Part shown: in pieces, positions 43,955-60,159 of the stretch
Layout: every line of letters starts with the position of its first letter
How positions within the stretch are numbered: the first letter of the stretch is position 1
Origin: Bacteroides fragilis
GTDB taxonomy: Bacteria > Bacteroidota > Bacteroidia > Bacteroidales > DTGW01
Assembly: GCA_945889005.1 (NCBI GenBank)
Contig: CAMDBI010000011.1
Coordinates: 1,379-65,378, forward strand
DNA length: 64,000 nt
Direction of reading: 5' to 3'
Translations under genes and position numbers: made by a program
The notes under the pieces: generated by a model
Seen by the model: only the letters and a program-made list of their open reading frames with translations
What the model was told of the DNA's origin: nothing
Databases searched by the model: none

Positions 43955-44338
43955 TTAAATTAGCCCAGTAATTCTTGATACAAATCCCTCGGCTTGTTCA
44001 AATAATTTTGAAGCTGTCTCATTATCATACAAAACAAAATCATCATAATCACCCGTTTGCCTCCTATCATAAAGATCTGCAAAAAAACGTCCATCTTCTC
44101 TATCGACCAAACCGCATTGTACAAAATGCAATCCAAACATTTGTCTAATCCCTTTATGCGAACTTGTATCAACATTCTTTTTTAGAAGCAGGGCACTTAC
44201 TGCATAAAAACAAGAATAGTAAATCCTATTTACAGAAGCATTCCAAAATTCATTGTCAATCATGGCTTTTGCTTCTCTTAAAGTCTCAAAAGACCTATTC
44301 ATACGATATTCAATCAGGTCATTTAAATCCCCATTCAT
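43955..44338 (-). CDS. HEPN-domain toxin-like protein
   Basis: 127 aa and helical, with ..DRRQTGDYDD.. (the RxxxxH-region analogue of HEPN partners of MNT). It overlaps the upstream MNT gene by 4 nt. Confidence 0.75.
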   Translation of the reverse strand: MNGDLNDLIEYRMNRSFETLREAKAMIDNEFWNASVNRIYYSCFYAVSALLLKKNVDTSSHKGIRQMFGLHFVQCGLVDREDGRFFADLYDRRQTGDYDDFVLYDNETASKLFEQAEGFVSRITGLI

Positions 44339-44652
44339 AACAGAACACCCTCCTGAGAAATATTATTATATAATGGAGTTACAGAATGACGTGTTTCCCA
44401 ATCTTTACGACTAAATATCAATGGACTTATAATTTTGCCTGTTTCAAATTCCAAATCATACAAAGGGTATTTTATTCTCTTTTCATCTGAATAAGTTACA
44501 TTATCATTATCAACAAGTATAAGCAAATCAATATCAGACTGTTTTTTATTTTGTCCACGTGCAAACGAACCATATAATATTACTGTAGCAGTAGGTTCAA
44601 CTAAATTTACCAATTGCTTAATTCTCAATAATATTTTTTTATTTTTTATCAT
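44335..44652 (-). CDS. minimal nucleotidyltransferase (MNT) antitoxin-like protein
   Basis: From ATG 44652: MIKNKKILLRIKQL.. ..LYGSFARGQNKKQSDIDLLILVD.. (GS..D.D NTase motif). The longer ORF to 44742 overlaps the neighbouring gene. Confidence 0.78.
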   Translation of the reverse strand: MIKNKKILLRIKQLVNLVEPTATVILYGSFARGQNKKQSDIDLLILVDNDNVTYSDEKRIKYPLYDLEFETGKIISPLIFSRKDWETRHSVTPLYNNISQEGVLL

Positions 44653-44738
44653 GTTCAAATATACAAAAATCAGACAATGATAGGATGGTTCTGGATTTTT
44701 TTTGTGCTTAACTAATGTATTACCCATGAATATAAAAA

Positions 44739-45566
44739 TCATTTCTTTGCCTCATCGATACTAAAGCGCTCCTGAATATAATTGATAATTTCGTTGGCGG
44801 TCGATTCGATGGGCTTGTTGGTAACATCGATGGTTGTGAAGCCTCCTCGCTCGAAAACGTTATTGGCATAGGCTAGCTCCATACGCACAATGCTCGAATC
44901 GAGATAAGAAGTTGAGTCGAAATTGCCCATTTTCGTGACTCGTTCTTTTCGTTGGGCTATGAGGCTTCCCGAATAGATCGACAGTCCAAAAACCCTACGA
45001 GGATCGACCTTAAACAAGTCTTCGGGTGGTGGAACTTCTCGTACCAAAGGCACATTGGCTACTTTCCAGCCCAACATGGCCATATATACGCTCAAAGGCG
45101 TTTTCCCTGCACGCGAAACTCCGGTCAATACAATGTCGGCCTGAAATATTTTGTCGGTATTCATACCATCGTCGACCGAAAGGGTAAATTCTATGGCTGC
45201 AATTCTATCGAAATATTCCTGATTCATTTTCCGAAATAAACCCGGCACCTGTATGGGTTCTGTATTGAGCCTGTTTGACAGGTAATCGCTCAATGGACCC
45301 ATAAGGTCGAAGCTTGGTACATCGTATTCCTGGCAATATTTATTTAGGGCCGATCGAATCTGCTTGTTGACCATGGTATGAACAATAATGCCATTATTCC
45401 CCTTGGCTTTAAGTACAACTCGAAGCACTTCTTCTTCTGTATGCACATCTGATTCGATGTTGGTAGGGATTTTGAAATCGGGAAACTGTACCAACAAAGC
45501 CTTTAGTACGTGTTCGCCTGCCAAACCCTTGCCCCCCGATACATTGTAAATGTGAGGAATATCCAT
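44739..45566 (-). CDS. PEP synthase / pyruvate-phosphate dikinase regulatory kinase-pyrophosphorylase (PpsR/PDRP, DUF299)
   Basis: From ATG 45566 (MDIPHIYNVSGG..) with the P-loop ..TGVSRAGKTPLSVYMA... The length of about 275 aa is typical. Confidence 0.85.
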   Translation of the reverse strand: MDIPHIYNVSGGKGLAGEHVLKALLVQFPDFKIPTNIESDVHTEEEVLRVVLKAKGNNGIIVHTMVNKQIRSALNKYCQEYDVPSFDLMGPLSDYLSNRLNTEPIQVPGLFRKMNQEYFDRIAAIEFTLSVDDGMNTDKIFQADIVLTGVSRAGKTPLSVYMAMLGWKVANVPLVREVPPPEDLFKVDPRRVFGLSIYSGSLIAQRKERVTKMGNFDSTSYLDSSIVRMELAYANNVFERGGFTTIDVTNKPIESTANEIINYIQERFSIDEAKK

Positions 45567-47796: not shown

Positions 47797-48372
47797 ATGA
47801 TCTTTTATCAAAAACCTATTTCTTTTATTTTTATAATTTCAATTGCTTTTAATTCAATCGCATTTTCTCAAAAGACAGTAAATGTATTACGTAAGGATAA
47901 TTTTTCGTACGAAGTGACCTGTGATATTACGTTCCTGAATAATGTATCAAAAGAACTCCTTGACTTTTGTTGGAATATGGAGAATATTAAAAAAATGCTA
48001 GCTGATGAACCTGTTGTGATTGAGTATTCGACTAAAGGCTATCAGCAAACTATCTCGTACGATTATTCATTTATATTTATGCGCTACTTTTCGCAGTACG
48101 AGCGCAAACTAAAACCTTCAGAAAGTAAAATAAGCTTCAAACTCACCAAAAACGAATGTTCAATACCTTTTATTCCAAACCTACAAAATGGTTATGGCGA
48201 ATACATTGTAAAATCGAACTATAAAACAACCACTGTCCATTACTATCAATATATTAGATGCGACGGTACTTTGCGCGATTTTTATTTCAATTACATAAAA
48301 AAAGATATTGTTAAATATTTTAATACATTTGAAAACGAGTTTTTAAAAACATTGAAAAATGCTAATCGCTAA
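47797..48372 (+). CDS. secreted hypothetical protein, first long gene of a two-radical-SAM operon
   Basis: 191 aa with a signal peptide. It overlaps the next gene by 14 nt. No family recognised. Confidence 0.5.
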   Translation: MIFYQKPISFIFIISIAFNSIAFSQKTVNVLRKDNFSYEVTCDITFLNNVSKELLDFCWNMENIKKMLADEPVVIEYSTKGYQQTISYDYSFIFMRYFSQYERKLKPSESKISFKLTKNECSIPFIPNLQNGYGEYIVKSNYKTTTVHYYQYIRCDGTLRDFYFNYIKKDIVKYFNTFENEFLKTLKNANR

Positions 48373-49282
48373 ATACTTTTTAAATTCAATACTTTATACT
48401 TTTAAATCAAAAATATTACGAAAAAATGTTCCATTTATAGCAGGGGTGGTCATTAACAACGATTGTAATTTGAAGTGTAGTCAATGTTTTCTGCAAAACG
48501 AAAAAAGAACAACTTTGTCCATTCAGCAAATTTCGGACGGATTAGACCAATTGTATTCGCGAGGCATACGTTCTGTTGCCATTACAGGTGGCGAACCATT
48601 TATGTGGCGCGATGGCAATCTGAGGCTCAACAATGTTTTCAATTTGATTTATAAAAAAGGGTTTATGGTATCGAGTGTATATACCAATGGAACATTTGCT
48701 ATAAACACCTCTGCAGACAATGTATTTGTAAGCATCGACGGTACCGAAGCAACCACCAACAAGCTTAGGGGGCCAGTTTTTCATACAGTTATCAATAACA
48801 TCAAAGCATCGAAACACCCCAAGATTTTTATCAATTACACCATCAACAGCTTAAACTACACTGAAATCGAACAGTTTTGCCAATTTATAAAAACAATTCC
48901 ACAGATAAAAGGTGTGTTTTTTTATTTCTATACACCATATAATTCGATAGACGAACTCTATCTTTCGCGCGATGAAAGGGTTGAAATAGCTCGAAAAATT
49001 ATAGCTTTGAAAAAAATATATAAAATATTGAACTCACATGCTGCCCTCAACGATTTCATAAACAATAACTGGAGTCGTCCCTCTGATGTTTGTTTGGTAT
49101 ATTCCGACAAAGCCGAGATTGTTCGTTGTTGTCGTACTATTAAAAACCAAGAAGCATGCGACAACTGTGGATATTTGGGATACCTCGAAGTAATCGATGT
49201 TACAAAATTTAAACTCAGTGCAGTATGGGAAGCATTCAATTATTTGCCCAACAAAAGTTCGAGGGAAAGTTATGTTAATTAG
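48359..49282 (+). CDS. radical SAM protein
   Basis: 307 aa with CX3CX2C (NNDCNLKCSQCF), GGEPF, and a C-terminal Cys cluster (CCRTIKNQEACDNCGY). Confidence 0.8.
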   Translation: MLIAKYFLNSILYTFKSKILRKNVPFIAGVVINNDCNLKCSQCFLQNEKRTTLSIQQISDGLDQLYSRGIRSVAITGGEPFMWRDGNLRLNNVFNLIYKKGFMVSSVYTNGTFAINTSADNVFVSIDGTEATTNKLRGPVFHTVINNIKASKHPKIFINYTINSLNYTEIEQFCQFIKTIPQIKGVFFYFYTPYNSIDELYLSRDERVEIARKIIALKKIYKILNSHAALNDFINNNWSRPSDVCLVYSDKAEIVRCCRTIKNQEACDNCGYLGYLEVIDVTKFKLSAVWEAFNYLPNKSSRESYVN

Positions 49283-49973
49283 TGCAATTACAAAGGCAAT
49301 TCGCTGCTACTATGCCGGCAACAATAGTCAGTTTGCATTCAAAAAACACCTCAAACCCAAGATTGACAAAAACGATATTGATTCCATTCATTTATATATT
49401 CATGTTCCATTTTGTTCGCATTGCTGTCCATACTGCCCATACAATAAAATTCAGGTCGATACAAATTTGGTCGAATTGTTCTTCAAAGCACTGGAAACCG
49501 AGATTGAACTTTATCACAATACGGTGGGTTGTATCAATGTTTCGTCGATTTACTTTGGAGGAGGTTCTCCGGCATTATTCCCCGGAGAAGTCGCATCGGT
49601 AATTGAGCAATTACAAAAACTTTTTAAGGTAAATGGCGAAATATGTATTGAAATAAACCCCAACGATTGTACATTCGAAAATTTACAAATACTCAAAAAT
49701 GCAGGCATAAAAACAGTAAGTGTGGGCGTACAATCGTTTCAGGATATCAATCTGAATATAATTGGCAGGTCGTACAATGCACAGGTAGCCGAAAAGGCAG
49801 TTGAAACAGTATGTAGCATCTTCGATTCGGTCAATATCGATCTTATGTTTGCATTGCCAACTCAGGACAATGAAAGTCTGTTGTACGATTTGTCGAAAGC
49901 CATTGGTTTCGGGGTCAATCAGATTACAACCTACCCCCTCTTTACATTTCCATACACGAAAGTTAGCAACTAG
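49272..49973 (+). pseudogene. 5' part of an interrupted HemN-like (class C) radical SAM gene
   Basis: From ATG 49272: HVPFCSHCCPYCPY (CX3CX2C), ..YFGGGSP.., ..VSVGVQSF.., ..NIDLMFALPTQ.., ..QITTYPLFTFPYTKV. A stop follows 3 codons later. The C-terminal half is found at 61581-62165. Confidence 0.75.
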
Positions 49974-50105
49974 CGGGGAGCATTTTCCGTCATTTAACAA
50001 AAAAAATACCCGACGCACAAAGCAACAGTTTGGCAGCCCTTCCCTGCAAGCTTCGCTTCACTGCCAAACACTTGCTTTTTTCCTGCCGCTCCTGCTTCGT
50101 AGATA
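49974..50105. other. GC-rich structured module at the left end of the island
   Basis: Stem GTTTGGCAG / CTGCCAAAC (9 bp) encloses the 24-nt loop CCCTTCCCTGCAAGCTTCGCTTCA. The GC content looks far above the surroundings. Confidence 0.5.
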
Positions 50106-50209
50106 GTTTTGTGCATCTTGATAAATTTTAAAAATCGAAATTAAAGTTTAACTGATTATAATATAGAATTTTAAGAGTGATTTTTATTAACTAAATTATT
50201 AATAATTAT

Positions 50210-50587
50210 ATGTCTTCTGTTTTTTTAAAAAATGAAACCACTATTCGAAAATTTGATATTCAAGAATTGCTTTTTATTACATGTGACGATCATTGCCTTT
50301 CTTTTCATTCAGTAAATAATGTATTTCATACAACTGGATGTATTTGCGATGTTTTAAAAGCTCTTCCAAGCTATTTTGTCTTAATAAATCGCAATACCGT
50401 TATCAATCTTAAACATATTAAAGAGATTAATTTGCCTCTAAGAAGATTAATCTTACAAAACGATACAACACACACAATTTCAAGTCGTAAGATGAGTTCT
50501 TTATTAAAGATGTTTTGTTTTCCAAAAAGCAAGTTAATAATACATACGTTTAATGACGATAATTTCACGTTCACGAAGTGTAACTGA
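50210..50587 (+). CDS. standalone LytTR-type DNA-binding protein
   Basis: 125 aa with ..IQELLFITCDDHCLSFHS.. ..LPSYFVLINRNTVINLKHIKEIN.. ..HTISSRK.. matching the LytTR domain pattern. No receiver domain is present. Confidence 0.72.
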   Translation: MSSVFLKNETTIRKFDIQELLFITCDDHCLSFHSVNNVFHTTGCICDVLKALPSYFVLINRNTVINLKHIKEINLPLRRLILQNDTTHTISSRKMSSLLKMFCFPKSKLIIHTFNDDNFTFTKCN

Positions 50588-50636
50588 CATTTGCTTAAAG
50601 CAATTACTTATTTTCATTTATTTGTATTTTAAATTT

Positions 50637-50979
50637 TAAAAATGTGCCAGCATAAATCTTATAAATTTATTAACACTTTAAAATGGAGGAATTATTATGA
50701 AGAATTTATTTAGTAAGAAAATTTCAAAAGTCAAAGAAGACACACAAGCAAACTGGATTTGTCCATGTTTTGGAGGTTGCACAGGTAATTGTTTTGGAGC
50801 TTGTTATAGTTGTATTGGTGGCTGTAAAGGTGGTTGCTCTAGTTGTAGCGGGACTTGTATGGCTTGTGCAAATGCATGTAATATTAATTGCTTTGTTAGT
50901 ACATACTAATAGTTAGAATAAATGTTAAATATTTGAGAATATTCAAATTGTTTTTTTATAATTAGCTGGCACATTTTTA
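50637..50979. repeat. perfect 15-bp inverted repeat bracketing the precursor gene
   Basis: TAAAAATGTGCCAGC (50637-50651) and GCTGGCACATTTTTA (50965-50979) are exact reverse complements. They enclose the SD site, the ORF and its stop. Confidence 0.85.
50697..50909 (+). CDS. RiPP precursor peptide, 13-Cys CXXX-repeat core
   Basis: 70 aa. Leader MKNLFSKKISKVKEDTQANWI is followed by core CPCFGGCTGNCFGACYSCIGGCKGGCSSCSGTCMACANACNINCFVSTY. A GGAGG lies 7 nt upstream of the ATG. It sits next to exporter, peptidase and radical SAM genes. Confidence 0.8.
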   Translation: MKNLFSKKISKVKEDTQANWICPCFGGCTGNCFGACYSCIGGCKGGCSSCSGTCMACANACNINCFVSTY

Positions 50980-51223
50980 TTGTTTACCTTTAAATTAAGA
51001 TGAAAAAAATGCTTTTTATGCATAACGTTTTGCCAAAACAAGAAAATATGGTTATAAAGTTTGGTGTATTATGGTTTTAAAATATGATAAACTATTTAAG
51101 ATTGACTATTTTCTAATGACTATTAGAAATGTAATCAAATAGAATTAATTCTGAAAGCGTATTTGTAAACTTTAGTATTAAATTTTCTTGGTATATAATT
51201 TGTAATTTTAATTAACTTTTTAA

Positions 51224-53005
51224 ATGAGTTTGAATCTTTTTTCAAAGAATGATACTATTCTTCTTAAACGTGCGGCAAGTTACGTTAAACCATACAAAGC
51301 ACTTTTTTTAATTGCATTTTTTTGCATTTTGTGTGGTGTTGGAATTTCTATGGCACAACCACTTATTTGGGCAAAACTAATTACCAGTTTATTTGATCAA
51401 AGTTACTCAGGGCTTTTGTTCATAATACGTTATATGCTCTTGTTGTTTACTCTGAGTATAATTATTGGCTTTGCGCAATCATTCTTTTTTTCAACATTAA
51501 ATGAAAGAATGATTTATGATATAAAGCGGGATATGTTTGCCAAAGTACTGAATCTGCCAGTCAAAGCATTTGACGATATGAGAACTGGTGAATTTATGTC
51601 TAGGTTAAATAACGATGCCGGAGTAATTGCACATGTCATTACAAGTCAGTTGTTAAATAGTATTATTGATGTTTTAAGAGTTATAATTGTCGGTGTAATA
51701 ATGTTCAGCATAAGCGTAAAACTGTCTTTGGTGATACTTTTTGCCTTCCCTTTTAATTATGTTATTTTTTTCTATTTTGGCAAGATAATTCGCAAAAGAC
51801 AGGCAGCTATTGCAAAAATTAATGATACTTATTTTAGCATTGTTCAGGAATCAGTAAGTGGTGTCAGAGAAATAAAATCTTTAGGGATTAAACACAATGC
51901 CAATGAAAGATTCCTGAAAGTTACAAATATGCTAAAAAATAAAAATATTAAATTAAGCATTATAGGAAATGTTTCGAATTCATCATCACAAGTAGTCAAG
52001 TATGTTACTGAAATTATCGCCATATTTTTTGGTTTTTATTTAATAAAGATAGGGGAAATAAAAATTGAAATGTTCATTGCATTTATGGGGTATACAGAAA
52101 TGTTTAGTGCATCTTTAATGGCATTGACAAGTCTTAATTCAAATATTCAAGAGGCACTTGTTTCAGTTGGCAGAATATTTGGGCTTCTCGATAATCTAAA
52201 CTATTCACAGGAAAAATATGGCAATAGCAATGAACTTGCTATAAACGGCGAAATCTTTTTTGATAATGTTAGCTTTGGTTATGATACTAAAATGGAGGTA
52301 TTAAAGGATGTATCCTTTTCTTTAAAACCGAATAGAAAAATAGCATTAGTTGGAGGAAGTGGTGTAGGGAAAACAACTATAATTAATTTACTTCTGAAAT
52401 TTTATGAACCATCAAAAGGTGCAATTTGTATTGATGGTTATAATATTAGCGATTTCAATGAAGATACATTAAGAACTTTAATATCAGTAGTAAGGCAGGA
52501 ACCTTTTCTTTTTAATATGTCCATTAAAGACAATCTCCTATTAGCAAATTCATTTGCGACTATGGAAGAACTCATCAATGCCTGCACTTTTGCTTATATT
52601 CACGACTTTATCATGTTGTTACCTATGGGTTATGATACTATTGTAGGAGAAAGGGGCGTAAATTTTTCTGGTGGACAAAAACAACGATTCGCAATTGCTC
52701 GAGCTGTCTTAAAGAAGTCAAAAATTATTTTATTTGATGAAGCTACCTCAGCATTGGATAACGAATCTCAATATGCCATAAAAAAAGCAATCGACAAACT
52801 AGCAAAAGAAAAAACACTTTTAATTATTGCTCACAGGTTATTTACTATAATAGATGCAGATGAGATTATTGTTATGGACAATGGAGGAATAGTAGGTGTT
52901 GGTTCTCATAGTCTACTTTTAGAAAACAATGCCATTTATGCAAGGCTTTATAAGGCAGAGGTCGAAACAATAAGTATGAACCATCAAAATACTGTCGTTT
53001 CATGA
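51224..53005 (+). CDS. ABC exporter, fused permease-ATPase (type I exporter), no C39 peptidase domain
   Basis: 593 aa with a 6-TM N-half, Walker A GGSGVGKTT, signature SGGQKQR and Walker B IILFDEATSALD. Confidence 0.9.
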   Translation: MSLNLFSKNDTILLKRAASYVKPYKALFLIAFFCILCGVGISMAQPLIWAKLITSLFDQSYSGLLFIIRYMLLLFTLSIIIGFAQSFFFSTLNERMIYDIKRDMFAKVLNLPVKAFDDMRTGEFMSRLNNDAGVIAHVITSQLLNSIIDVLRVIIVGVIMFSISVKLSLVILFAFPFNYVIFFYFGKIIRKRQAAIAKINDTYFSIVQESVSGVREIKSLGIKHNANERFLKVTNMLKNKNIKLSIIGNVSNSSSQVVKYVTEIIAIFFGFYLIKIGEIKIEMFIAFMGYTEMFSASLMALTSLNSNIQEALVSVGRIFGLLDNLNYSQEKYGNSNELAINGEIFFDNVSFGYDTKMEVLKDVSFSLKPNRKIALVGGSGVGKTTIINLLLKFYEPSKGAICIDGYNISDFNEDTLRTLISVVRQEPFLFNMSIKDNLLLANSFATMEELINACTFAYIHDFIMLLPMGYDTIVGERGVNFSGGQKQRFAIARAVLKKSKIILFDEATSALDNESQYAIKKAIDKLAKEKTLLIIAHRLFTIIDADEIIVMDNGGIVGVGSHSLLLENNAIYARLYKAEVETISMNHQNTVVS

Positions 53006-53709
53006 GTTTAGTAGATGAAAACAGACAAAAGGTAAGAGTGGTTGTAATTGATAGTGGGATTGACTCATCTGTTTCTACTCTAAAACACAATATAATTAAA
53101 TCAACAGGTTTCTGGGTAAATTCTGTTGGTTTGATTGGTGAAGTTTCTAATAAACAAATTAATAGTTTACATGGCACTTCAGTTGCGTTAGTAATAAAGG
53201 ATATTTGTAACAATGTAGAATTTGTTAGTTTTAATATTTTAAATGAAAGGTTAAAAACCGATAGCAGAATAATGATTTACGCAATGAATGAGGCTTTGAG
53301 AGAGAAGCCTAATATTATTCATTTGAGTTTAGGAACAAGTAATTGGAGATATTACTTTTATATAAAAAAAATTGTTAATGAGGCCAAGAAAAATAATATT
53401 ATTATTGTTGCAGCCTATAACAACAAAGGAATATTTCCATCTTATCCAGCTTCAATAAGGGGTGTTGTTGGAGTAAAGAGCTTATTCAACAATTCCGGGA
53501 AAAACTTTTTCTATTATAAATACGGTCGTTACTATGCACCCAATTCACTAAACGAGATTGAAGGTTCTTCAGAATTGATAAATGCTGTTGAAATTAAAGG
53601 GACAAGTATTTCAGCCGCTTATATTACTGGACATATTGCTAATGTAATATTTAATCAAGACATTCATAATTATAATGATATTTTAAAAAGTTTAAAAACG
53701 AGAACTTAA
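53002..53709 (+). CDS. minimal S8 (subtilisin-like) serine peptidase, no signal peptide
   Basis: 235 aa with Asp (VVVIDSGID), His (SLHGTSVA), Asn (AAYNN) and Ser (KGTSISAAYITGH). Its ATG overlaps the ABC stop (ATGA). Confidence 0.8.
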   Translation: MSLVDENRQKVRVVVIDSGIDSSVSTLKHNIIKSTGFWVNSVGLIGEVSNKQINSLHGTSVALVIKDICNNVEFVSFNILNERLKTDSRIMIYAMNEALREKPNIIHLSLGTSNWRYYFYIKKIVNEAKKNNIIIVAAYNNKGIFPSYPASIRGVVGVKSLFNNSGKNFFYYKYGRYYAPNSLNEIEGSSELINAVEIKGTSISAAYITGHIANVIFNQDIHNYNDILKSLKTRT

Positions 53710-53721
53710 AATAAATCTAAA

Positions 53722-55887
53722 ATGACTGAGACAAGAAGTATTAAAATGGGAAACCTTAATAAGGAATGGATGAACGGTGCAGCAAAAAATATAACATTTT
53801 GTGTTACCGAAGATTGTAATCTTGCCTGTAAATATTGTTATATGACAGGCAAAAACGGCACTGTTAAAATGAATTTCGAAACAGCAAAAAAGGCTGTTGA
53901 TTTTATTCTTAATAGCAATAGTGACGAATTTAAACAAAAAGCTGTTATATTTGATTTTATTGGTGGTGAGCCGTTTTTGGAAATTGAACTTATTGATAAA
54001 GTTTCAGATTATATTAAAATCCAAATGTTTGAAATGGATCACAAATGGTTTGATTATTATAGGTTCAGTTTTTCATCCAACGGTTTGTTATATGGGACAA
54101 AAAAAGTACAAGAGTATATTCAAAAGAATCGAGGGCATATTTCCATTGGACTAAGTGTTGATGGAAATAAGTATAAGCATGATTTACAACGCATAAAAAA
54201 GGATGGTTCAGGCTCTTATGATGATGTAGTTAAAAATGTTCCTTTGTGGTTAGAACAATTTCCTTTTGCTACTACTAAGGCTACATTTTCTCACGAAGAT
54301 ATACCATATTTAAAAGATAGTATCATCAGTCTGTGGAACTTGGGCTTAAAAGAAATTCCTGCCAATGTTGTTTTTGAAGATGTCTGGCATGAAGGAGATG
54401 ATGTTATTTTTGAGAACCAATTGAAAGAATTGGCAGATTATATTATTTCTAATGAGTTATGGTGGGAACATTCAGTTAGATTTTTTGATCCCAAAACAGG
54501 TACCCCTCTTTCGCAAAGTGATTTAAATAAAAATTATTGTGGCTCAGGAAAAATGTTATCTATAGATTGCAATGGAGATCTCTTCCCATGCATAAGGTTT
54601 TGCGATATAAGTTTAAACAACCGTGAACCAATAATAATTGGAAATATTGAAAGTGGTATTGATGAGGATAAAGTACGTCCTTTTAAACTGCTTTCATATA
54701 AAAATCAAAGCCCAGAAGAATGTATGAACTGTCAGGTTGCATCAGGGTGTGCTTGGTGTACTGGAGCAAATTACGATTTTGCTGATTCAGATACCATCTA
54801 CCAAAGAGCAATATTTATTTGCAAAATGCATAAAGCGAATGTTCGTGCTAATGAATATTTTTGGAATAAACTTAAAGAACAATTAGGCTATATGCCTCAT
54901 GAAAGGCAAACATGGATTGAAATGAATAAAGTAGAAAATAAATATCTGCAAATAATGACTTCCGATCAAATAATACCCCATTGTAATTACAGAAATTGGC
55001 ATAATAAGAACAATAAAATGGATGATGCAATTTTTGAGAAAAGTATAAAGTTTGCTAAGGAAAATGGCTTTGTTGTGGTTTTTTTTGAAGAGTTTGAAAA
55101 TAAAAGGATTGCAGCTAAAAATCTAAGTGGTATTAATGTAGTTGATGGCAATTCAACTAAATATATCGAAGGTAACAACCTTTATATATTTGACAATTTC
55201 GTAAATGATAATATGGAAAATGTTCAAAACTTGATTCTTCGAATTCATGCTGAAAATATTTCCAATATATATAACTATATTCAAAAACTAACCAATAAGT
55301 CTACAAGAATAAATCTTCAATTGGAATCCATTGAGCGATGGACAGATATCGAATTGCAAATATATGAATCACAATTAAGCCAATTATCTGATTTGGTATT
55401 TGAATCTTACAAAAACAATAATCCTATTGAAATAAATGTTCTAACTGATATAATGGAATTAGAAAGTATTAATGAATGTGGGGCAGGTATTTCTTCTTTT
55501 GCTGTTGCTCCGAATGGTAAAATATATCTATGTCCAGCTTTTTATTTTGAAAACCCGGAAAATTCAATTGGAAGTATAGATGAGGGTATTTCCATAATAA
55601 ATAGTCATATGTTATATGCTGAAAATTCTCCAATTTGTTCAAAATGCGATGCCTTTCATTGTAATAGATGTAAATTTTTGAATAAGAAACGAACCAACGA
55701 AATTAATACCCCTTCAAAGATGCAATGTATTATTAGTCATATTGAAAGAAATAAATCTAGAGAACTTCAATTGCGTTTAAAGGAATGGGGTTTTAATGAT
55801 TTCAAAAATTTCATTAAAGAAATCGATTATCTAGACCCTTTAGACCACCTATTATTAACTCACGATAGCGATGGACGTTGTATATAA
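53722..55887 (+). CDS. radical SAM / SPASM peptide maturase with a second C-terminal SPASM-like Cys-rich domain
   Basis: 721 aa with CX3CX2C (EDCNLACKYCY) and GGEPF. The first SPASM region is CGSGKMLSIDCNGDLFPC..CMNCQVASGCAWC. The C-terminal half repeats the pattern as CGAGISSFAVAPNGKIYLCP..CSKCDAFHCNRC..C. Confidence 0.88.
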   Translation: MTETRSIKMGNLNKEWMNGAAKNITFCVTEDCNLACKYCYMTGKNGTVKMNFETAKKAVDFILNSNSDEFKQKAVIFDFIGGEPFLEIELIDKVSDYIKIQMFEMDHKWFDYYRFSFSSNGLLYGTKKVQEYIQKNRGHISIGLSVDGNKYKHDLQRIKKDGSGSYDDVVKNVPLWLEQFPFATTKATFSHEDIPYLKDSIISLWNLGLKEIPANVVFEDVWHEGDDVIFENQLKELADYIISNELWWEHSVRFFDPKTGTPLSQSDLNKNYCGSGKMLSIDCNGDLFPCIRFCDISLNNREPIIIGNIESGIDEDKVRPFKLLSYKNQSPEECMNCQVASGCAWCTGANYDFADSDTIYQRAIFICKMHKANVRANEYFWNKLKEQLGYMPHERQTWIEMNKVENKYLQIMTSDQIIPHCNYRNWHNKNNKMDDAIFEKSIKFAKENGFVVVFFEEFENKRIAAKNLSGINVVDGNSTKYIEGNNLYIFDNFVNDNMENVQNLILRIHAENISNIYNYIQKLTNKSTRINLQLESIERWTDIELQIYESQLSQLSDLVFESYKNNNPIEINVLTDIMELESINECGAGISSFAVAPNGKIYLCPAFYFENPENSIGSIDEGISIINSHMLYAENSPICSKCDAFHCNRCKFLNKKRTNEINTPSKMQCIISHIERNKSRELQLRLKEWGFNDFKNFIKEIDYLDPLDHLLLTHDSDGRCI

Positions 55888-55915
55888 CAAAAGTTTAATT
55901 TTAAAAACAAACAAA

Positions 55916-56209
55916 ATGAATAAAGAAAAAGTAGGTTTTGTAACTGAAGAAGAAAAAGAAGAAATAAGGGTTCTTCACGAAAGGAAATTGGCATTGAATG
56001 AACTTATTCCTTCTCTTGGAACTGGATTGTTATCCGATGACAAAAGAAACGAAATATACGAAAAGGTTTTACAAGACATGGGTAAAACTAATTCATTATT
56101 TCAGGCATGGTGGAATAGCAAAAGTGTTAAATACAACTGGAAATCAATGGAAAATGGTAATTGGTCGATTGATTTTGATACAAATGAAATTTTTTTAGTT
56201 ACAAACTAA
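55916..56209 (+). CDS. small Trp-rich accessory protein of the RiPP cassette
   Basis: 97 aa from ATG 55916 (MNKEKVGFVTEEEKEE.. ..FQAWWNSKSVKYNWKSMENGNWSIDF..). The ORF-track start at 55871 overlaps the radical SAM gene end. Function unknown. Confidence 0.5.
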   Translation: MNKEKVGFVTEEEKEEIRVLHERKLALNELIPSLGTGLLSDDKRNEIYEKVLQDMGKTNSLFQAWWNSKSVKYNWKSMENGNWSIDFDTNEIFLVTN

Positions 56210-56235
56210 AATGAAATTTTAAATTATTTGAGTAT

Positions 56236-56286
56236 GTATACTTTTTTAATAATATTATCGTTATTAGAAAAGTATACTCGTTTTTT
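56236..56286 (+). terminator. Rho-independent terminator closing the RiPP core operon
   Basis: Stem GTATACTTTT (56236-56245) / AAAAGTATAC (56268-56277) is followed by TTTTTT (56281-56286). Confidence 0.5.
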
Positions 56287-56317
56287 ATGCTTTTATAGAA
56301 CGTTATTTTATTAATTT

Positions 56318-59218
56318 ATGAGAATTTGGTTATTACTTTTTTTATTCTTCTATTGTAATATGTCCATTATTTCTCAGTCTGATTCTATAAAATCAAATAG
56401 AAATTATATTATTCACGGATATGTTACCGATAGCGAAACGGGGGAGCATTTGAATGGTGTTGTAATTACTGAGGAAAATACCAATGTGAGCACAATTACC
56501 AATAATTATGGCTTTTATAGTATTAAACTTTCTGAAAGTCAGATCAAATTAAATATTTCATATATTGGATATAGGAATGAAATACAAGAACAAAGTCTTT
56601 TAAAAAATACCGAACTAAATATTCCATTGTTGCCTTTGCCTATTGAAATTAAAGAAGTTATTATAACCGATAAAAATACCCTGAAACAAGTTGAAAGTTC
56701 ACAAATGGGTGTAAACGAGCTGCAAATGAAAAATCTCAAAAGCATTCCGGTACTTGCAGGAGAAAACGATATTATTAAAACAATGCAATTATTACCGGGA
56801 GTTCAGCAAGGGTCTGAAGGTTCTTCTTCGCTTTATATCAGAGGAGGCAGTTCAGACCAAAACCTTATTTTGCTTGATGAGGCTTCGGTTTATAATATCA
56901 ATCATTTATTTGGGTTTATGTCTACATTTAATGATGATGCTATTCAAAGTGCAACAGTTTTAAAAGGTGGGATTCCTGCCCGCTATGGTGGGCGACTTTC
57001 TTCTGTTGTAGATGTTCGTATGAAAGAAGGAAATAATCAGAACGTTGAAAGTCAAGGTTCAATAGGAACAATTGCATCAAGGTTTACTATCTCTGGGCCA
57101 ATTGTAAATAATAAAACATCTTTTATGTTCTCGGCTCGAAGATCTTATTTTGATTTACTTACTCGACCTTTATTAAAACTCATGGAATTGGTAAATGGAG
57201 AACAAGTAAAGTCGTTTTATTATTTTCAAGATTATAATCTTAAAGTCAACCATATATTTTCATCAAACAGCCGTCTGTTTTTTAGCATTTATACTGGAAA
57301 CGACGTAATAAGTGATTATATGAAAACGAATCATAATAATCGGCCTTTTTTAGAAACCTATGAATTTAATTGGGGCAACATTACTGCAACAACTCGTTGG
57401 AACTATAAATTTGGTGACAGATTATTCAGCAATTTCACATTGATTTATAGCCAATATATGAATAATGCTCATTTTAATAATTCATGGACAGATACTTCTC
57501 ATATTAACTATAAAGATTACGGAAATTTTAAATCGGGAATTCGAGATTATTCAGCTAAGTCCGATTTTTATTTTTATATTAATTCAAACCATACGTTTCG
57601 TTTTGGTTCCCAAAGCACTTTACATATATTTTATCCCGGTAATCTATTTGAGGGTTCTTATATTCAGAACTTCAATAATACAAAAACAGATACTTCTATA
57701 AATCTAAAAGCGATTAATCTTGCTGAAAATGAATTGTACCTCGAAGATGAAATGAAAATTGGTAATAAATGGAGAGCCAATTTAGGCCTGAGGTATTGTC
57801 AAGCAACAGTTGAAAACAAAACATATAATTCAATACAGCCTCGTTTAAGTCTTTCTTACTTAATTGCTGAGAATTGGTCAGTCAAAGCTGCATTGTGTAA
57901 TATGAACCAAAATATGAACCTTTTAACTGGCTCATCTTCAAACGGACTTCCAATGGATTTGTGGATTCCAACTACAGGTATTTTAAAGCCTCAAAGTTCT
58001 AAACAGTATTCAGTTGGTTCGGTTTTATTATTCAACAGCAGTATTGAATTTATTACGGAATTATTCTATAAAAACATGCAAAATGTTCTTGATTACCGTG
58101 ATGGCACAAGCTATGTTTTTGCTGATAAAGAATGGCAAAGTAAGATTGTTCAAGGTAATGGCATTGCCTATGGTGCTGAATTTATGGCAGAAAAGAAAAC
58201 AGGCAATACATTTGGTTGGTTTAACTATACTTGGAGCAAAAGTTTGCGACAATTTAATGAAATAGACAATGGTCAGAGGTTTCCTTACCAATATCATCGT
58301 ACACACAATATTAACTTTATGGTAGTTCACCGTTTTTCGGAAAAGTTTGAAATTGGTGCTATTTGGGTATTTTCATCCGGTCGTTTTTTAACAGTGAATA
58401 ACCAGAAATATTCTTCGTATCTTGAACCCAGAAGCAATGTTGAAACATATACTAATCGTAGTAATTTTGAAGCTCCTGCATATCATCGGTTGGATGTAAA
58501 TTTGAGATTTTCGAAACAAAAGAAGTGGGGAGTCAGAACATGGAGTATAGGTTGTTACAACTTGTACAACCGTCAGAATCCCTCAATTGTTTATGTTTCC
58601 GATAATAAAGTGCACCAATTGGCTATTATGCCTATTATACCGTCAGTGTCATATAATTATAAATTTGGAATGAAGCGAGTTTCTTCAATAAAGCCTACGT
58701 TTGATATCCCTGTAGAAAGCACCCCAATTGTTGAAAAAAAAGATACTTTTTTAAAAATCATTGATAATAAAATTCAGATATTAAATACCAATAAAGGAAA
58801 TAGAATAGTAGGTTTAAATTTTAATATCAGTTTATCAAGTACCAGTAAAAGCATTTTGTTCAATTTAACCTCGGCCAAGTTCGTATTAAATAATTTGGCA
58901 ATAGGTTCTTCTTTAGGTTATACTTACAATAAATATTTTGTTAACGATATTGAAAACACTATACAAACAATAAATTATGGCTTTTTGAGTAGATATTACA
59001 TTGGCAAATACAAAATCAAACCATTTGTTCAAATTATACCGGGTTTAAAAATTACTAGTCAGGAAACACTAAGTTTTAATAAATTCTTAAATAATGGGCT
59101 AGGCGTAGCTTGTTTTTTAGCTGATAGAATAGCTCTCGAAGCATTGTTGAGCAACGATTATAATCAGAATGCAATTTCATTCCGAATAGGCTTTCAAATA
59201 TATTTTTCTAAAAAATAA
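56318..59218 (+). CDS. TonB-dependent receptor (CarboxypepD_reg-plug-barrel) with extra ~183-aa C-terminal beta-barrel-like domain
   Basis: 966 aa. A signal peptide is followed by ..YIIHGYVTDSETGEHLNGVVI.., a plug and a barrel ending ..SVSYNYKF at residue ~783. The frame then continues for 183 aa of alternating beta-strand-like sequence ending ..RIGFQIYFSKK. Confidence 0.82.
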   Translation: MRIWLLLFLFFYCNMSIISQSDSIKSNRNYIIHGYVTDSETGEHLNGVVITEENTNVSTITNNYGFYSIKLSESQIKLNISYIGYRNEIQEQSLLKNTELNIPLLPLPIEIKEVIITDKNTLKQVESSQMGVNELQMKNLKSIPVLAGENDIIKTMQLLPGVQQGSEGSSSLYIRGGSSDQNLILLDEASVYNINHLFGFMSTFNDDAIQSATVLKGGIPARYGGRLSSVVDVRMKEGNNQNVESQGSIGTIASRFTISGPIVNNKTSFMFSARRSYFDLLTRPLLKLMELVNGEQVKSFYYFQDYNLKVNHIFSSNSRLFFSIYTGNDVISDYMKTNHNNRPFLETYEFNWGNITATTRWNYKFGDRLFSNFTLIYSQYMNNAHFNNSWTDTSHINYKDYGNFKSGIRDYSAKSDFYFYINSNHTFRFGSQSTLHIFYPGNLFEGSYIQNFNNTKTDTSINLKAINLAENELYLEDEMKIGNKWRANLGLRYCQATVENKTYNSIQPRLSLSYLIAENWSVKAALCNMNQNMNLLTGSSSNGLPMDLWIPTTGILKPQSSKQYSVGSVLLFNSSIEFITELFYKNMQNVLDYRDGTSYVFADKEWQSKIVQGNGIAYGAEFMAEKKTGNTFGWFNYTWSKSLRQFNEIDNGQRFPYQYHRTHNINFMVVHRFSEKFEIGAIWVFSSGRFLTVNNQKYSSYLEPRSNVETYTNRSNFEAPAYHRLDVNLRFSKQKKWGVRTWSIGCYNLYNRQNPSIVYVSDNKVHQLAIMPIIPSVSYNYKFGMKRVSSIKPTFDIPVESTPIVEKKDTFLKIIDNKIQILNTNKGNRIVGLNFNISLSSTSKSILFNLTSAKFVLNNLAIGSSLGYTYNKYFVNDIENTIQTINYGFLSRYYIGKYKIKPFVQIIPGLKITSQETLSFNKFLNNGLGVACFLADRIALEALLSNDYNQNAISFRIGFQIYFSKK

Positions 59219-59225
59219 ATAATAA

Positions 59226-60068
59226 ATGACGAAACACATTCTAAACATAATTTATATTATTTTCTTTCCAGCTTTATATTCTTGCGATAAAGAAATAGAC
59301 ACTAATATTTCAGGTGGGAATGATGAATATGTTGTTAATGCGACCTTATGCTCCGATAGTATTGTAAGTATGGTTGTATACAATACTAGTAATATACTTG
59401 ATAATTCTCAGCCATTATTTGTGAATTCCGTTTCTGCTTTACTTTATGAGGGCAGAAGTATTATAGATACTTTTATTTACAATGGAAGTGGTAGATATTT
59501 GTGTAAAATTAAACCTGTGTCAAATAAACCATATTCATTAAAAATTAAAATTAATGGACATTCTATAACTTCAACAGATACAATTCCAAAAAAGGTTAGA
59601 ATTCAGAGTGTCGATACTTTTTTAGTTGGCAATAAGTTGTTTTGTTCTGTTAATATTACCGACCCAATTAATACCGATAATTATTATTTATTTACAATGA
59701 ATTCTGCTCAAAAATATAGTCCCGAAAAGTTTATTAAGCAGGAGTTTACATGTAATGACCCAATGATAACTAACGCTGATGTGGTTGACAGTCTTGATGG
59801 TGGTAATATTATTTTCTTTCGTGACACTCAATTTAAAGGTAAATCCCATGCATTGTTTATATCTTTACCATATCAAAAAGAAAAAGTTTTAAATTTTCAG
59901 CTTTGGTCTATTAGTCATGCTTTTTATAATTATTGCCATTCAATAGTTATTAATAGACAGTTCAAATCATCATTATTTAATGAGAAAGTAAAAGTCCAAA
60001 GTAATATTATAGGTGGAAAAGGTATATTTGCAGCATACTCAGTAGATACATTGCAAGTTATATTATAG
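59226..60068 (+). CDS. DUF4249-like lipoprotein (usual partner of this receptor class)
   Basis: 280 aa with lipobox ALYSC. It lies immediately downstream of the receptor. The family call rests on context and layout. Confidence 0.65.
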   Translation: MTKHILNIIYIIFFPALYSCDKEIDTNISGGNDEYVVNATLCSDSIVSMVVYNTSNILDNSQPLFVNSVSALLYEGRSIIDTFIYNGSGRYLCKIKPVSNKPYSLKIKINGHSITSTDTIPKKVRIQSVDTFLVGNKLFCSVNITDPINTDNYYLFTMNSAQKYSPEKFIKQEFTCNDPMITNADVVDSLDGGNIIFFRDTQFKGKSHALFISLPYQKEKVLNFQLWSISHAFYNYCHSIVINRQFKSSLFNEKVKVQSNIIGGKGIFAAYSVDTLQVIL

Positions 60069-60159
60069 TATATTAATTTTATGAAATAATATTCAAAAAT
60101 AATAATGATTTTTTTTATTTTTATGCTTTCATAAACCGTTAAACTAAAACTAACTCATT

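What the first reader, a model, noticed from the sequence alone, without database searches (positions are those of the whole stretch)
50697..50909. Precursor peptide with Cys every fourth residue over 44 residues
The core is C22 P C FGG C TGN C FGA C YS C IGG C KGG C SS C SGT C MA C ANA C NIN C65. It has 13 Cys. Eight of the twelve Cys-Cys spacers are exactly XXX, three are XX and one is X. The intervening residues are mostly Gly, Ser, Ala, Thr and Asn. The 21-residue leader is Lys-rich and Cys-free. This density and register differ from SCIFF (6 Cys in 45) and from typical sactipeptide or ranthipeptide precursors. It suggests a ladder of short thioether rings or a poly-thiolate metal site.
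Basis: seen in the sequence. Interest (0 to 1): 0.8.

Follow-up and report, generated by a model that had tools for sequence, protein, structure and literature searches.

The report
CXXX-repeat RiPP precursor, known family
The 70-residue, 13-cysteine ORF is a real precursor peptide of the "CXXX-repeat" radical-SAM peptide-modification system, a family already catalogued by computer annotation (mostly in Clostridia) whose chemistry appears never to have been worked out; here it sits in a rarer Bacteroidota version of the gene cluster.

Summary
ORF 50697..50909 (+) encodes 70 aa with 13 Cys over 44 residues, with spacers 1,3,3,3,2,3,3,2,3,2,3,3. Of 642 six-frame segments in the window, it is the only one with a Cys chain longer than 5.

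It is not a new class. The neighbouring genes pass curated NCBIfam cut-offs for the CXXX-repeat peptide modification system: the maturase hits TIGR04115 and TIGR04119, and the small partner hits TIGR04116. The peptide hits the precursor model TIGR04118 at 33.4 bits against a cut-off of 35.

All but one full-length related locus I fetched (about 45) carries one to three small ORFs with the same leader (M-x-x-LFS-x-KKI…D-[VT]-x-[GA]-[YW]) and 3 to 15 Cys. 84% of the Cys-Cys spacers are XXX. Synonymous changes dominate between relatives (29 against 5), so the ORF family is translated.

The most likely mechanism is that a radical-SAM/SPASM enzyme with a duplicated SPASM module cross-links the Cys residues. 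A QhpE-like S8 protease then removes the leader and an ABC exporter secretes the product. PapB-type Cys-Asp chemistry is excluded as the general reaction, because this core has no Asp or Glu.

The Bacteroidota lineage adds three features: a LytTR regulator, a conserved stem bracketing the precursor gene, and a TonB-dependent receptor.

Verdict: a new member of a known but uncharacterised kind.

The parts
50210..50587 (+). LytTR-domain-only DNA-binding protein (125 aa, no receiver domain), the likely regulator of the cassette
   Evidence: Pfam PF04397 scores 47.5 bits against a cut-off of 22.6. A homologue sits immediately upstream of the precursor in L001 (67% identity), L049, L050 and L052. 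No homologue was found in the Clostridial loci.
50637..50651 (+). 5' arm of the conserved inverted repeat (TAAAAATGTGCCAGC), 60 nt upstream of the ATG
   Evidence: The same element is found in L001, L049, L051, L052 and L053, always 59-73 nt upstream of the ATG.
50685..50689 (+). GGAGG Shine-Dalgarno-like motif 7 nt before the start codon
   Evidence: It is the only SD-like motif among the 10 cluster genes. The motif ATGGAGGA is conserved before the ATG in L001, L049 and L051.
50697..50909 (+). Precursor peptide gene (70 aa). The leader is about residues 1-20 (50697-50756). The core is about residues 21-70 (50757-50906), with 13 Cys from C22 to C65.
   Evidence: TIGR04118 gives E 3.2e-8 and 33.4 bits. 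A leader HMM built from relatives scores 34 bits, E 2e-8. The leader/core boundary is inferred from alignment A3.
50965..50979 (+). 3' arm of the inverted repeat (GCTGGCACATTTTTA), 56 nt after the stop codon
   Evidence: The MFE and centroid folds of 50625-50995 both close with this stem.
51224..53005 (+). ABC exporter (fused permease and ATPase, 593 aa) with no N-terminal C39 peptidase domain
   Evidence: PF00664 plus PF00005. Matches to peptidase-containing bacteriocin ABC models start at profile positions of about 135-155. Conserved next to the S8 gene in most loci.
53002..53709 (+). Small cytoplasmic subtilisin-like (S8) protease, QhpE-like, the likely leader peptidase
   Evidence: PF00082. 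NF049966 QhpE scores 111 bits, below its cut-off of 165. The triad D17/H57/S202 is intact. Conserved directly upstream of the maturase in most loci.
53722..55887 (+). Radical-SAM/SPASM maturase (721 aa). Residues 21-380 hold the rSAM domain and a 7-Cys SPASM domain. Residues of about 400-721 form a duplicated late-barrel plus second 7-Cys SPASM-like module.
   Evidence: TIGR04115 scores 555.7 against a cut-off of 350, and TIGR04119 scores 279.4 against 150. Conserved Cys are 32,36,39 / 273,290,334,337,343,346,367 / 421 / 586,604,639,642,647,650,669. hhalign of the C-half against the N-half gives probability 94% and E 8.5e-8. CteB (5WGG) is the closest structure.
55916..56209 (+). CXXX-repeat system partner protein (97 aa counted from M16; the longest ORF starts at 55871)
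   Evidence: TIGR04116 scores 89.6 against a cut-off of 50. Homologues all start at the MNKEKVG methionine. The AF2 model has pLDDT 85 with topology beta-alpha-alpha-beta-beta. No significant PDB fold match.
56318..59218 (+). TonB-dependent receptor (CarboxypepD_reg, Plug and barrel domains), the lineage-specific addition
   Evidence: Pfam annotations. A receptor of this type directly follows the cassette in 9 of 10 informative Bacteroidota-type loci.
59226..60068 (+). DUF4249 protein, the usual partner of this receptor type
   Evidence: The same pairing is seen in L048, L051, L052, L054 and L055.

Best explanation
The ORF is the precursor (leader plus core) of a CXXX-repeat RiPP. The proposed pathway has five steps.

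1. The conserved N-terminal leader (MKNLFSKKISKVKEDTQANW) docks the peptide on the 721-aa maturase and/or its 97-aa partner. This is non-canonical, because the enzyme has no N-terminal RRE domain.

2. The radical-SAM domain abstracts H atoms from the core. Each Cys thiolate, presented at the open iron of auxiliary cluster I as in CteB and PapB, is joined to a nearby carbon. This would give an in-line series of small thioether rings. No spacer residue is conserved and acidic residues are dispensable, so the acceptor must be chosen independently of side chain: a backbone C-alpha, or possibly the next Cys. The duplicated C-terminal SPASM-like module would supply two more Fe-S clusters, for electron transfer or for holding the many-Cys substrate.

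3. The QhpE-like S8 protease removes the leader, probably after the aromatic residue W20.

4. The ABC transporter exports the product.

5. In the Bacteroidota lineage a dedicated TonB-dependent receptor plus DUF4249 protein takes the product, or a complex of it, back across the outer membrane, and a LytTR protein regulates the locus.

What is shown here: family membership, the conserved leader and Cys register, the cassette composition, and the enzyme's domain and Cys architecture.

What is inferred: the nature of the cross-links, the cleavage site, the re-uptake, and the biological role.

My probabilities: genuine precursor of this system about 0.93; thioether cross-linking about 0.45; S8 as leader peptidase about 0.6; re-uptake through the receptor about 0.4.
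For: Curated models. TIGR04115 scores 555.7 against 350, TIGR04119 scores 279.4 against 150, TIGR04116 scores 89.6 against 50, and the precursor model TIGR04118 gives E 3e-8.

Related loci. Every fetched full-length locus but one (L034) has a small ORF with the same leader and 3 to 15 Cys, often as 2-3 tandem paralogues. 34 of 39 such ORFs hit TIGR04118.

Cys register. Over 41 precursors, 289 of 344 Cys-Cys spacers are XXX and 42 are XX. The non-Cys residues are G 22%, S 19% and T 11%.

Translation. L001 and L049 differ at 29 codons synonymously and at 5 by replacement, over 78 codons. 5 of the 15 shared Cys use different codons.

Thioether inference. The best-scoring characterised families are PapB (220 bits), QhpD and the SCIFF maturase. 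The closest solved structure is CteB, with phmmer E 2.9e-31 and Foldseek E 5e-18. The CX3CX2C motif and a 7-Cys SPASM domain are conserved. PapB and Tte1186 bind the substrate Cys at an auxiliary cluster (PMC10177961 abstract; PMC12373016).

Cassette. The order ABC, S8, maturase, partner is conserved across about 30 loci. The S8 triad is intact. The ABC transporter lacks a peptidase domain.

Receptor. A TonB-dependent receptor follows the cassette in 9 of 10 Bacteroidota-type loci.
Against: No experiment on any member of this family was found in the searchable literature, so the chemistry rests on homology alone. The maturase scores below the cut-off of every characterised thioether-synthase model. 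Only one of the six CteB active-site positions is retained: Y40, I80, S118, S145, I291, R292 in place of F, F, T, S, H, Q. The core has no Asp or Glu, which is the acceptor required by the closest characterised enzyme, PapB. No RRE was detected in the enzyme, and the partner protein has no RRE-like fold match, so leader recognition is unexplained. No expression data could be obtained. The precursor is 1.6 bits under the TIGR04118 cut-off. The receptor's role is inferred from synteny only.
Confidence: 0.55

Rival explanations
1. Metal-binding peptide (metallophore or chalkophore-like). Most Cys stay as thiols, or are only partly cross-linked, and form a poly-thiolate site for soft metals or an Fe-S cluster. 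The radical-SAM enzyme makes a few constraining links or another modification. The peptide is exported, loads metal, and returns through the dedicated TonB-dependent receptor.
For: A TonB-dependent receptor plus DUF4249 protein directly follows the cassette in 9 of 10 Bacteroidota-type loci. The only conserved core feature is the Cys register itself, and the spacers are Gly/Ser-rich and flexible. An exported modified peptide with its own receptor is the logic of methanobactin and MbnT (my own knowledge, not tested here).
Against: The large Clostridial majority of cassettes showed no uptake homologue among the window proteins I searched with. No metal-related genes or regulators were seen in the window cluster. 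The closest characterised enzymes consume the Cys thiol. Family members with only 3-5 Cys (L009, L010, L016, L021) would make poor poly-thiolate ligands.
Confidence: 0.2
2. The Cys residues themselves are the chemical target rather than sulfur donors to other residues. Examples are anSME-like oxidation of Cys, Cys-to-Cys S-C links in which each Cys is both donor and acceptor, or another new transformation that uses the second SPASM module.
For: Cys is the only conserved core residue. anSME is the second-best structural match, with Foldseek E 1e-12, and its NCBIfam model is hit at E 5.7e-17. The enzyme has an unusual extra 7-Cys module and a divergent active-site lining.
Against: The thioether-forming families score far higher than anSME, with PapB at E 3e-65 against 6e-17. 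There is no precedent for such chemistry on 13 sites. This is speculation from the conservation pattern.
Confidence: 0.12
3. A secreted antimicrobial (bacteriocin) or quorum signal whose function does not depend on re-uptake, with the neighbouring receptor being incidental synteny.
For: The combination of ABC exporter, leader protease and tandem precursor paralogues is typical of bacteriocin loci. LytTR regulators commonly control peptide-signal and bacteriocin loci (my own knowledge). L050 has the cassette without a receptor.
Against: No immunity gene was identified. The receptor association holds in 9 of 10 loci even though the receptors have diverged to about 31% identity. This rival concerns the biological role, not the chemistry, and it overlaps with the best explanation.
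Confidence: 0.1
4. A chance ORF or annotation artefact that is not translated.
For: One public gene call on the same contig left it out (L046). The exact peptide found nothing in the 5.8-billion-protein collection.
Against: Statistics. A conserved leader and Cys register in about 50 loci. 29 synonymous against 5 replacement changes. A gene call exists in L047. TIGR04118 gives E 3e-8.
Confidence: 0.02

Closest known systems
CXXX-repeat peptide modification system of NCBIfam/TIGRFAMs (TIGR04115 rSAM_Cxxx_rpt, TIGR04119 CXXX_matur, TIGR04116 CXXX_rpt_assoc, and the precursor models TIGR04118 Cxxx_AC3_0185, TIGR04117 and TIGR04114). It was defined in silico. I attribute it to the Haft and Basu 2011 line of work from my own knowledge; that paper was not readable here.
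   Same: The maturase, its C-terminal module and the partner protein all exceed curated cut-offs. The precursor shares the family leader and the Cys-every-fourth core. The ABC and S8 genes are in the usual order.
   Different: The precursor is 1.6 bits under the TIGR04118 cut-off. It lies upstream of the ABC gene, behind a LytTR gene, instead of downstream of the partner gene. It is bracketed by a conserved inverted repeat. A TonB-dependent receptor and a DUF4249 protein are appended. The host is Bacteroidota-type, not Clostridia. Its unbroken chain of 13 Cys ties L011 for the longest among the 41 tabulated precursors; some Bacteroidota-type relatives have more Cys in total, up to 15.
PapA/PapB (freyrasin, a ranthipeptide from Paenibacillus polymyxa)
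   Same: PapB is the best-scoring characterised maturase family (NF047865, 220.5 bits, E 3e-65). Its substrate also has repeated, regularly spaced Cys in an in-line arrangement, with six CX3D motifs, and Cys is the sulfur donor (PMC9413430).
   Different: The score is below the PapB cut-off of 340. PapB needs a carboxylate-bearing acceptor, either Asp/Glu or the C-terminus, whereas this core has no Asp or Glu, and neither do 8 other family members. There is no N-terminal RRE. There is an extra C-terminal SPASM-like module.
CteB/CteA (SCIFF, thermocellin), PDB 5WGG and 5WHY
   Same: CteB is the closest solved structure to residues 21-375 (phmmer E 2.9e-31; Foldseek E 5e-18, TM to target 0.63). 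It has the same CX3CX2C motif and the same 7-Cys SPASM layout.
   Different: SCIFF precursors have 6 Cys in about 45 residues. The SCIFF maturase model scores 131 against a cut-off of 425. CteB residues 1-95 (its RRE) have no counterpart here. Five of the six active-site lining residues differ.
QhpD/QhpE/QhpC (maturation of quinohemoprotein amine dehydrogenase)
   Same: A radical-SAM thioether synthase is paired with a small cytoplasmic subtilisin-like protease. The S8 protein's best named match is QhpE (111 bits), and the maturase hits the QhpD model at E 2e-38.
   Different: Both scores are below their cut-offs. QhpC is an enzyme subunit cross-linked at Asp and Glu, not an exported Cys-repeat peptide. 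No dehydrogenase genes are present here.
Methanobactin-type metallophores with a dedicated TonB-dependent receptor (MbnT); my own knowledge
   Same: An exported, modified ribosomal peptide is encoded next to its own TonB-dependent receptor.
   Different: Pfam scans of the cluster proteins gave no MbnB/MbnC-type hits. The modifying enzyme class is different. Metal binding is untested.

Membership tests
CXXX-repeat peptide modification system (NCBIfam) | The radical-SAM maturase passes TIGR04115 | tested here: met
   555.7 bits against a cut-off of 350, residues 21-380
CXXX-repeat peptide modification system (NCBIfam) | The CXXX_matur module passes TIGR04119 | tested here: met
   279.4 bits against a cut-off of 150, residues 503-710
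CXXX-repeat peptide modification system (NCBIfam) | The system-associated small protein passes TIGR04116 | tested here: met
   89.6 bits against a cut-off of 50
CXXX-repeat peptide modification system (NCBIfam) | The precursor passes the curated cut-off of TIGR04118 (AC3_0185 family) | tested here: inconclusive
   33.4 bits against a cut-off of 35, E 3.2e-8, covering profile positions 1-45 of 46. 34 of 39 relatives match the same model at E<=0.01.
CXXX-repeat peptide modification system (NCBIfam) | A shared leader motif followed by Cys at a period of about 4 | tested here: met
   The leader HMM scores 34 bits, E 2e-8. See alignment A3. 84% of family spacers are XXX, and 8 of 12 are XXX here.
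Ranthipeptide, PapB/freyrasin type | The maturase passes NF047865 | tested here: not met
   220.5 bits against a cut-off of 340
Ranthipeptide, PapB/freyrasin type | C-X3-D/E acceptor motifs in the core | tested here: not met
   There are no Asp or Glu residues between C22 and C65
Ranthipeptide, PapB/freyrasin type | A thioether from Cys-S to a non-alpha carbon | not testable with these tools
   Needs MS/MS and NMR of the modified peptide
SCIFF (six-Cys-in-45) system | The maturase passes TIGR03974, and the precursor matches the SCIFF model | tested here: not met
   131.5 bits against a cut-off of 425. The precursor had no SCIFF precursor hit.
Sactipeptide | Hairpin layout with donor Cys in one half and acceptors in the other, made by a known sactisynthase family | tested here: not met
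   The Cys are spread evenly over the whole core. The AlbA, SkfB and RumMC models are hit only weakly, or not at all, by the maturase.
Sactipeptide | A Cys-S to C-alpha thioether | not testable with these tools
   Needs chemistry. It remains a possible outcome for an enzyme whose acceptor choice does not depend on the side chain.
RRE-dependent RiPP maturation | A PqqD-like RRE domain in the maturase or in a partner protein | tested here: not met
   The alignment to CteB starts at CteB residue 96, after its RRE. The partner protein model (pLDDT 85) has a best PDB match of only E 0.37, limited to a helical hairpin. The C-terminal module was not searched on its own.
Methanobactin-like metallophore | MbnB/MbnC-type modifying enzymes | tested here: not met
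   Pfam and NCBIfam scans of the cluster proteins show none
Methanobactin-like metallophore | A dedicated TonB-dependent receptor in the cluster | tested here: met
   Window 56318..59218. Conserved in 9 of 10 Bacteroidota-type loci.

The most novel reading that the evidence does not exclude
In the Bacteroidota lineage the CXXX-repeat product is a peptide that leaves the cell and is taken up again through its own TonB-dependent receptor, acting as a metallophore or as an outer-membrane-crossing signal. It would be made by a five-cluster radical-SAM enzyme whose cross-linking does not depend on the acceptor side chain, for example C-alpha links or Cys-to-Cys links. That would be a thioether or thiolate 'ladder' scaffold with no characterised precedent. 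Its mRNA would be controlled by a conserved long-range stem that encloses the precursor ORF.
Probability: 0.2. Interest if true: 0.75.

Novelty: new member of a known kind. Interest (0 to 1): 0.4.

Why it matters
The family is widespread. The maturase's specific C-terminal module alone finds 253 clusters (50% identity) at E<=1e-30. Yet I found no paper that names or characterises it.

This member is a clean test substrate. It has 13 Cys in near-perfect register and no acidic residue. The product of its maturase would therefore show at once whether the enzyme performs acceptor-independent thioether formation or something else. It would also show what a second SPASM module is for.

The Bacteroidota-specific additions give a testable handle on the biological role, which the Clostridial cassettes do not offer. 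These additions are the receptor with its DUF4249 partner, the LytTR protein, and the stem around the precursor gene.

As a discovery of a new class, however, the finding does not stand. Annotation pipelines already name these genes.

Tried and rejected
1. The precursor found nothing in the 5.8-billion-protein collection. Small ORFs are often not called there, so this says nothing about rarity.

2. Literature searches found nothing on the family. I tried 'CXXX repeat', the TIGR numbers, whole-word 'CXXX' with 'radical SAM', and 'SPASM domains'. The AC3_0185 term only matched unrelated DOIs. Haft and Basu 2011 (PMC3133131) is not held in the library.

3. PapB-type Cys-Asp chemistry is rejected as the general reaction. 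This core has no Asp or Glu, and neither do 8 other cores.

4. I tested the partner protein as an RRE. Foldseek gave no significant match, so this is rejected as far as the tool can tell.

Codon-level selection was used instead.

6. There is no intrinsic terminator and no above-chance sigma-70 promoter around the ORF, and no Rfam family.

7. The upstream radical-SAM genes (48359..49282 and 49197..49973) are rejected as part of the system. They are absent from all related loci.

8. The full-length maturase model is only moderate (pLDDT 69). I therefore did not interpret fine structure in the C-terminal module and relied on hhalign.

9. I considered the idea that the mean Cys period of 3.58 residues marks an alpha-helical Cys stripe. 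The family mean is about 3.9 and the cores are Gly/Ser-rich, so I did not pursue it.
Full report
**1. The observation**

It encodes 70 aa with a Cys-free leader of 21 residues containing 5 Lys. The 13 Cys lie at positions 22-65, with spacers 1,3,3,3,2,3,3,2,3,2,3,3. Of the 31 spacer residues, 23 are G, S, A, T or N. A GGAGG lies 7 nt upstream of the ATG.

The pattern is far beyond chance. Among 642 six-frame segments of at least 40 aa in the window, the longest chain of closely spaced Cys is 5 or less everywhere else and 13 here. None of 200,000 shuffles of the core reproduces the register.

**2. What it is**

The surrounding genes identify it. The 721-aa protein at 53722..55887 passes two curated NCBIfam models: TIGR04115 'radical SAM peptide maturase, CXXX-repeat target family' (555.7 bits, cut-off 350) and TIGR04119 'CXXX repeat peptide maturase' (279.4, cut-off 150). 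The small protein after it passes TIGR04116 'CXXX repeat peptide modification system protein' (89.6, cut-off 50). The ORF itself hits the precursor model TIGR04118 'AC3_0185 family rSAM-modified Cys-rich RiPP' at E 3.2e-8 and 33.4 bits, just under its cut-off of 35. Between the precursor and the maturase lie an ABC exporter without a peptidase domain and a 235-aa S8 protease. The protease's best named match is QhpE, and its triad D17/H57/S202 is intact.

**3. Related loci**

The maturase has thousands of relatives. Those that carry names are Clostridia at about 55-58% identity. The sixteen closest (61-68%) are unnamed metagenome proteins. A scan of species-representative genomes returned 38 loci with a homologue: 36 full-length and two contig-end fragments (L027, L037). 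Most are Clostridia or other Bacillota. One is a Bacteroidales MAG (L001, 64%), one is a Planctomycetaceae MAG, and one is a fragment binned as archaeal.

I scanned these loci mechanically for Cys chains, and then with an HMM built from the leaders. Of the 36 full-length loci, 35 carry a small ORF with the same leader and 3 to 15 Cys. The leader pattern is M-x-x-L-F-S-x-K-K-I-x-K-x-x-x-D-[V/I/T]-x-[G/A]-[Y/F/W]. The Clostridial loci often carry two or three tandem paralogues, placed just downstream of the partner gene. The exception is L034 (45% identity), which has three short Cys-rich ORFs about 2 kb downstream of the maturase with a different N-terminus. Ten further Bacteroidota-type loci were fetched through the closest maturases. 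Seven of them have a precursor, and in the other three (L048, L054 and the duplicate contig) the contig does not reach the expected position or repeats the window.

34 of 39 such peptides hit TIGR04118. Over the 41 tabulated precursors, 289 of 344 Cys-Cys spacers are XXX and 42 are XX. Position +2 is Gly in 35% of CXXXC units. No spacer residue is conserved.

Expression data could not be obtained, but the coding signal is clear. L001 and L049 differ at 29 codons synonymously and at only 5 by replacement. Five of their 15 shared Cys use different codons.

**4. The cassette**

tblastn of the window proteins against all loci shows a conserved core in the order ABC, S8, maturase, partner, precursor(s). 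The window belongs to a minority arrangement shared with L001 and L048-L056: a LytTR-only protein, then the precursor, then ABC, S8, maturase and partner. A TonB-dependent receptor (CarbopepD_reg plus Plug) follows, usually with a DUF4249 protein. The receptor follows the cassette in 9 of 10 informative loci of this type; L050 is the exception. The two radical-SAM genes upstream (48359..49973) are not conserved and are not part of the system.

**5. The enzyme**

Residues 21-375 align to CteB residues 96-443 (PDB 5WGG, E 2.9e-31). The RRE domain at the N-terminus of CteB therefore has no counterpart here. Foldseek on the AF2 model ranks CteB first and anSME second.

Fourteen family members share these Cys:
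- 32, 36, 39, forming the CX3CX2C motif;
- 273, 290, 334, 337, 343, 346, 367, a 7-Cys SPASM set;
- 421;
- 586, 604, 639, 642, 647, 650, 669, a second 7-Cys set.

A profile-profile comparison aligns residues 510-650 with residues 198-346 (probability 94%, E 8.5e-8). The TIGR04119 module is therefore an internal duplicate of the late barrel plus SPASM region that lacks a SAM-cluster motif. The enzyme could hold up to five [4Fe-4S] clusters.

The same module also exists as a stand-alone protein of about 305-330 aa in many clusters. In total 253 clusters match at E<=1e-30 and 679 at E<=1e-3.

Six active-site positions were defined on CteB (F112, F152, T186, S210, H363, Q364; PMC10288494). Here they read Y40, I80, S118, S145, I291, R292, and R292 is invariant in the family. 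A role for this Arg like that of PapB Arg372 (PMC9413430) is a lead that I could not test.

The 97-aa partner probably starts at M16, which is window 55916. It models confidently (pLDDT 85) as beta-alpha-alpha-beta-beta. It has no significant match in the PDB and is not recognisably an RRE.

**6. Mechanism**

The nearest characterised enzymes (PapB, QhpD, and the SCIFF maturases CteB and Tte1186) all join a Cys sulfur to a carbon of another residue. PapB does this six times in line, on CX3D repeats. Thioether cross-linking is therefore the best-supported chemistry, and an in-line ladder is the most natural topology for evenly spaced Cys.

PapB needs a carboxylate next to the carbon it attacks. 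This core has no Asp or Glu, and neither do 8 other cores. The family's reaction therefore cannot be PapB's. Because only the Cys are conserved, the acceptor must be chosen independently of side chain, or it must be Cys itself. I put thioether cross-linking at about 0.45.

The main rivals are a largely thiol-retaining metal-binding product (about 0.2), modification of the Cys themselves (about 0.12), and a bacteriocin or signalling role that does not involve re-uptake (about 0.1). Leader removal by the S8 protease after the conserved aromatic residue (W20 here) and export by the ABC transporter are inferred from gene content and from the QhpD/QhpE analogy. The conserved receptor suggests that in diderm hosts the product, or a complex of it, is brought back across the outer membrane. 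That is the strongest argument for a metallophore or signalling role, but it rests on synteny alone.

**7. A side finding**

In six Bacteroidota-type loci the precursor ORF is bracketed by a conserved inverted repeat, AAAATGTG[C/T]CAG and its complement. In the window the arms lie at 50637-50651 and 50965-50979. The 5' arm is always 59-73 nt before the ATG, and the 3' arm is 9-56 nt after the stop. The motif occurs nowhere else in the fetched loci.

On an alignment of the arms, 88.9% of cells pair, against 37-52% when the partners are slid by 1-3 columns. Three pairs show clean two-sided changes: A-U to G-C, C-G to U-A, and U-A to A-U. One sequence has a G-U pair, which works only for plus-strand RNA. 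The MFE and centroid folds of 50625-50995 both close with this stem. No Rfam family matches.

The likeliest reading is a long-range 5'/3' stem that encloses the precursor mRNA. Paired operator sites for the LytTR protein are the rival reading.

**8. Novelty and verdict**

The peptide is a genuine and rather extreme member of a family that annotation databases already define. Its unbroken chain of 13 Cys ties for the longest among the 41 tabulated, and it has no acidic residue. It is therefore a new member of a known kind, not a new class.

The family's chemistry appears uncharacterised in the literature I could search. That absence is not proof, because subscription journals are not covered.

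The interest is moderate. The interesting parts are an unsolved enzyme with an unusual duplicated SPASM module, an unusually clean substrate, and lineage-specific clues to function (the receptor, the LytTR protein and the mRNA stem).

Noticed in passing
window 50637-50651 and 50965-50979; also L001 7052-7065/7413-7426, L051 681-694/1025-1038, L052 465-479/767-781, L053 1893-1910/2207-2224, L049 5078-5088/5442-5452: A conserved inverted repeat brackets the precursor ORF in six Bacteroidota-type loci. Three base pairs covary and one sequence has a G-U pair. The predicted RNA fold closes with this stem. There is no Rfam match. It is probably a long-range mRNA stem; the rival reading is paired operator sites for the LytTR protein.
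   Followed up: partly
window 56318-59218 and 59226-60068: A TonB-dependent receptor directly follows the cassette in 9 of 10 Bacteroidota-type loci, usually with a DUF4249 protein. The receptors have diverged to about 31% identity, while the cassette proteins stay at 52-70%. Neither protein hits any NCBIfam model.
   Followed up: partly
window 50685-50689: The precursor is the only one of 10 cluster genes with a Shine-Dalgarno-like GGAGG. The motif ATGGAGGA is conserved in the relatives I checked (L001, L049, L051). From my own knowledge, Bacteroidota rarely use SD sequences. It may be a relic of a Firmicutes origin, or part of an RNA element.
   Followed up: partly
window 54922-55884 (maturase residues 401-721): The TIGR04119 module is an internal duplicate of the late barrel plus SPASM region, with its own 7 conserved Cys. 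In many other genomes it exists as a stand-alone protein of about 305-330 aa.
   Followed up: partly
window 48359-49282 and 49197-49973: Two further radical-SAM genes lie just upstream, preceded by an unknown 191-aa ORF at 47797-48372. One is a 307-aa protein with only weak family matches. The other is a HemN/HemW-like ORF that stops at 258 aa, covering about half of the HemW profile, so it looks truncated. The two ORFs overlap by 86 nt. Neither is found next to the cassette in any other locus apart from the window's own duplicate contig.
   Followed up: partly
window 48001-64000: G+C falls to 28-33% across the cassette and receptor region, against 35-39% in the rest of the window. This is consistent with acquired DNA.
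   Followed up: no
L049 882-2907: In one close relative the cassette sits beside Toprim, MobC/NikA-like and relaxase genes, which indicates a mobilisable element.
   Followed up: no
window 43955-44742 (- strand): An adjacent HEPN protein (127 aa) and nucleotidyltransferase (135 aa) overlap by 4 nt. This is the layout of a HEPN/MNT toxin-antitoxin pair.
   Followed up: no
L023 and L027: Full or partial cassettes occur in a Planctomycetaceae MAG and in a contig binned as a Methanotrichaceae archaeon. The second is a 2.2-kb contig and may be a binning error. The Planctomycetaceae precursor has a longer leader of about 36 residues.
   Followed up: no
L003, L005, L007, L008, L012, L025, L028, L034: The Clostridial cassettes often carry 2-3 tandem precursor paralogues with nearly identical leaders and diverged cores. 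The Bacteroidota-type loci carry a single copy.
   Followed up: no
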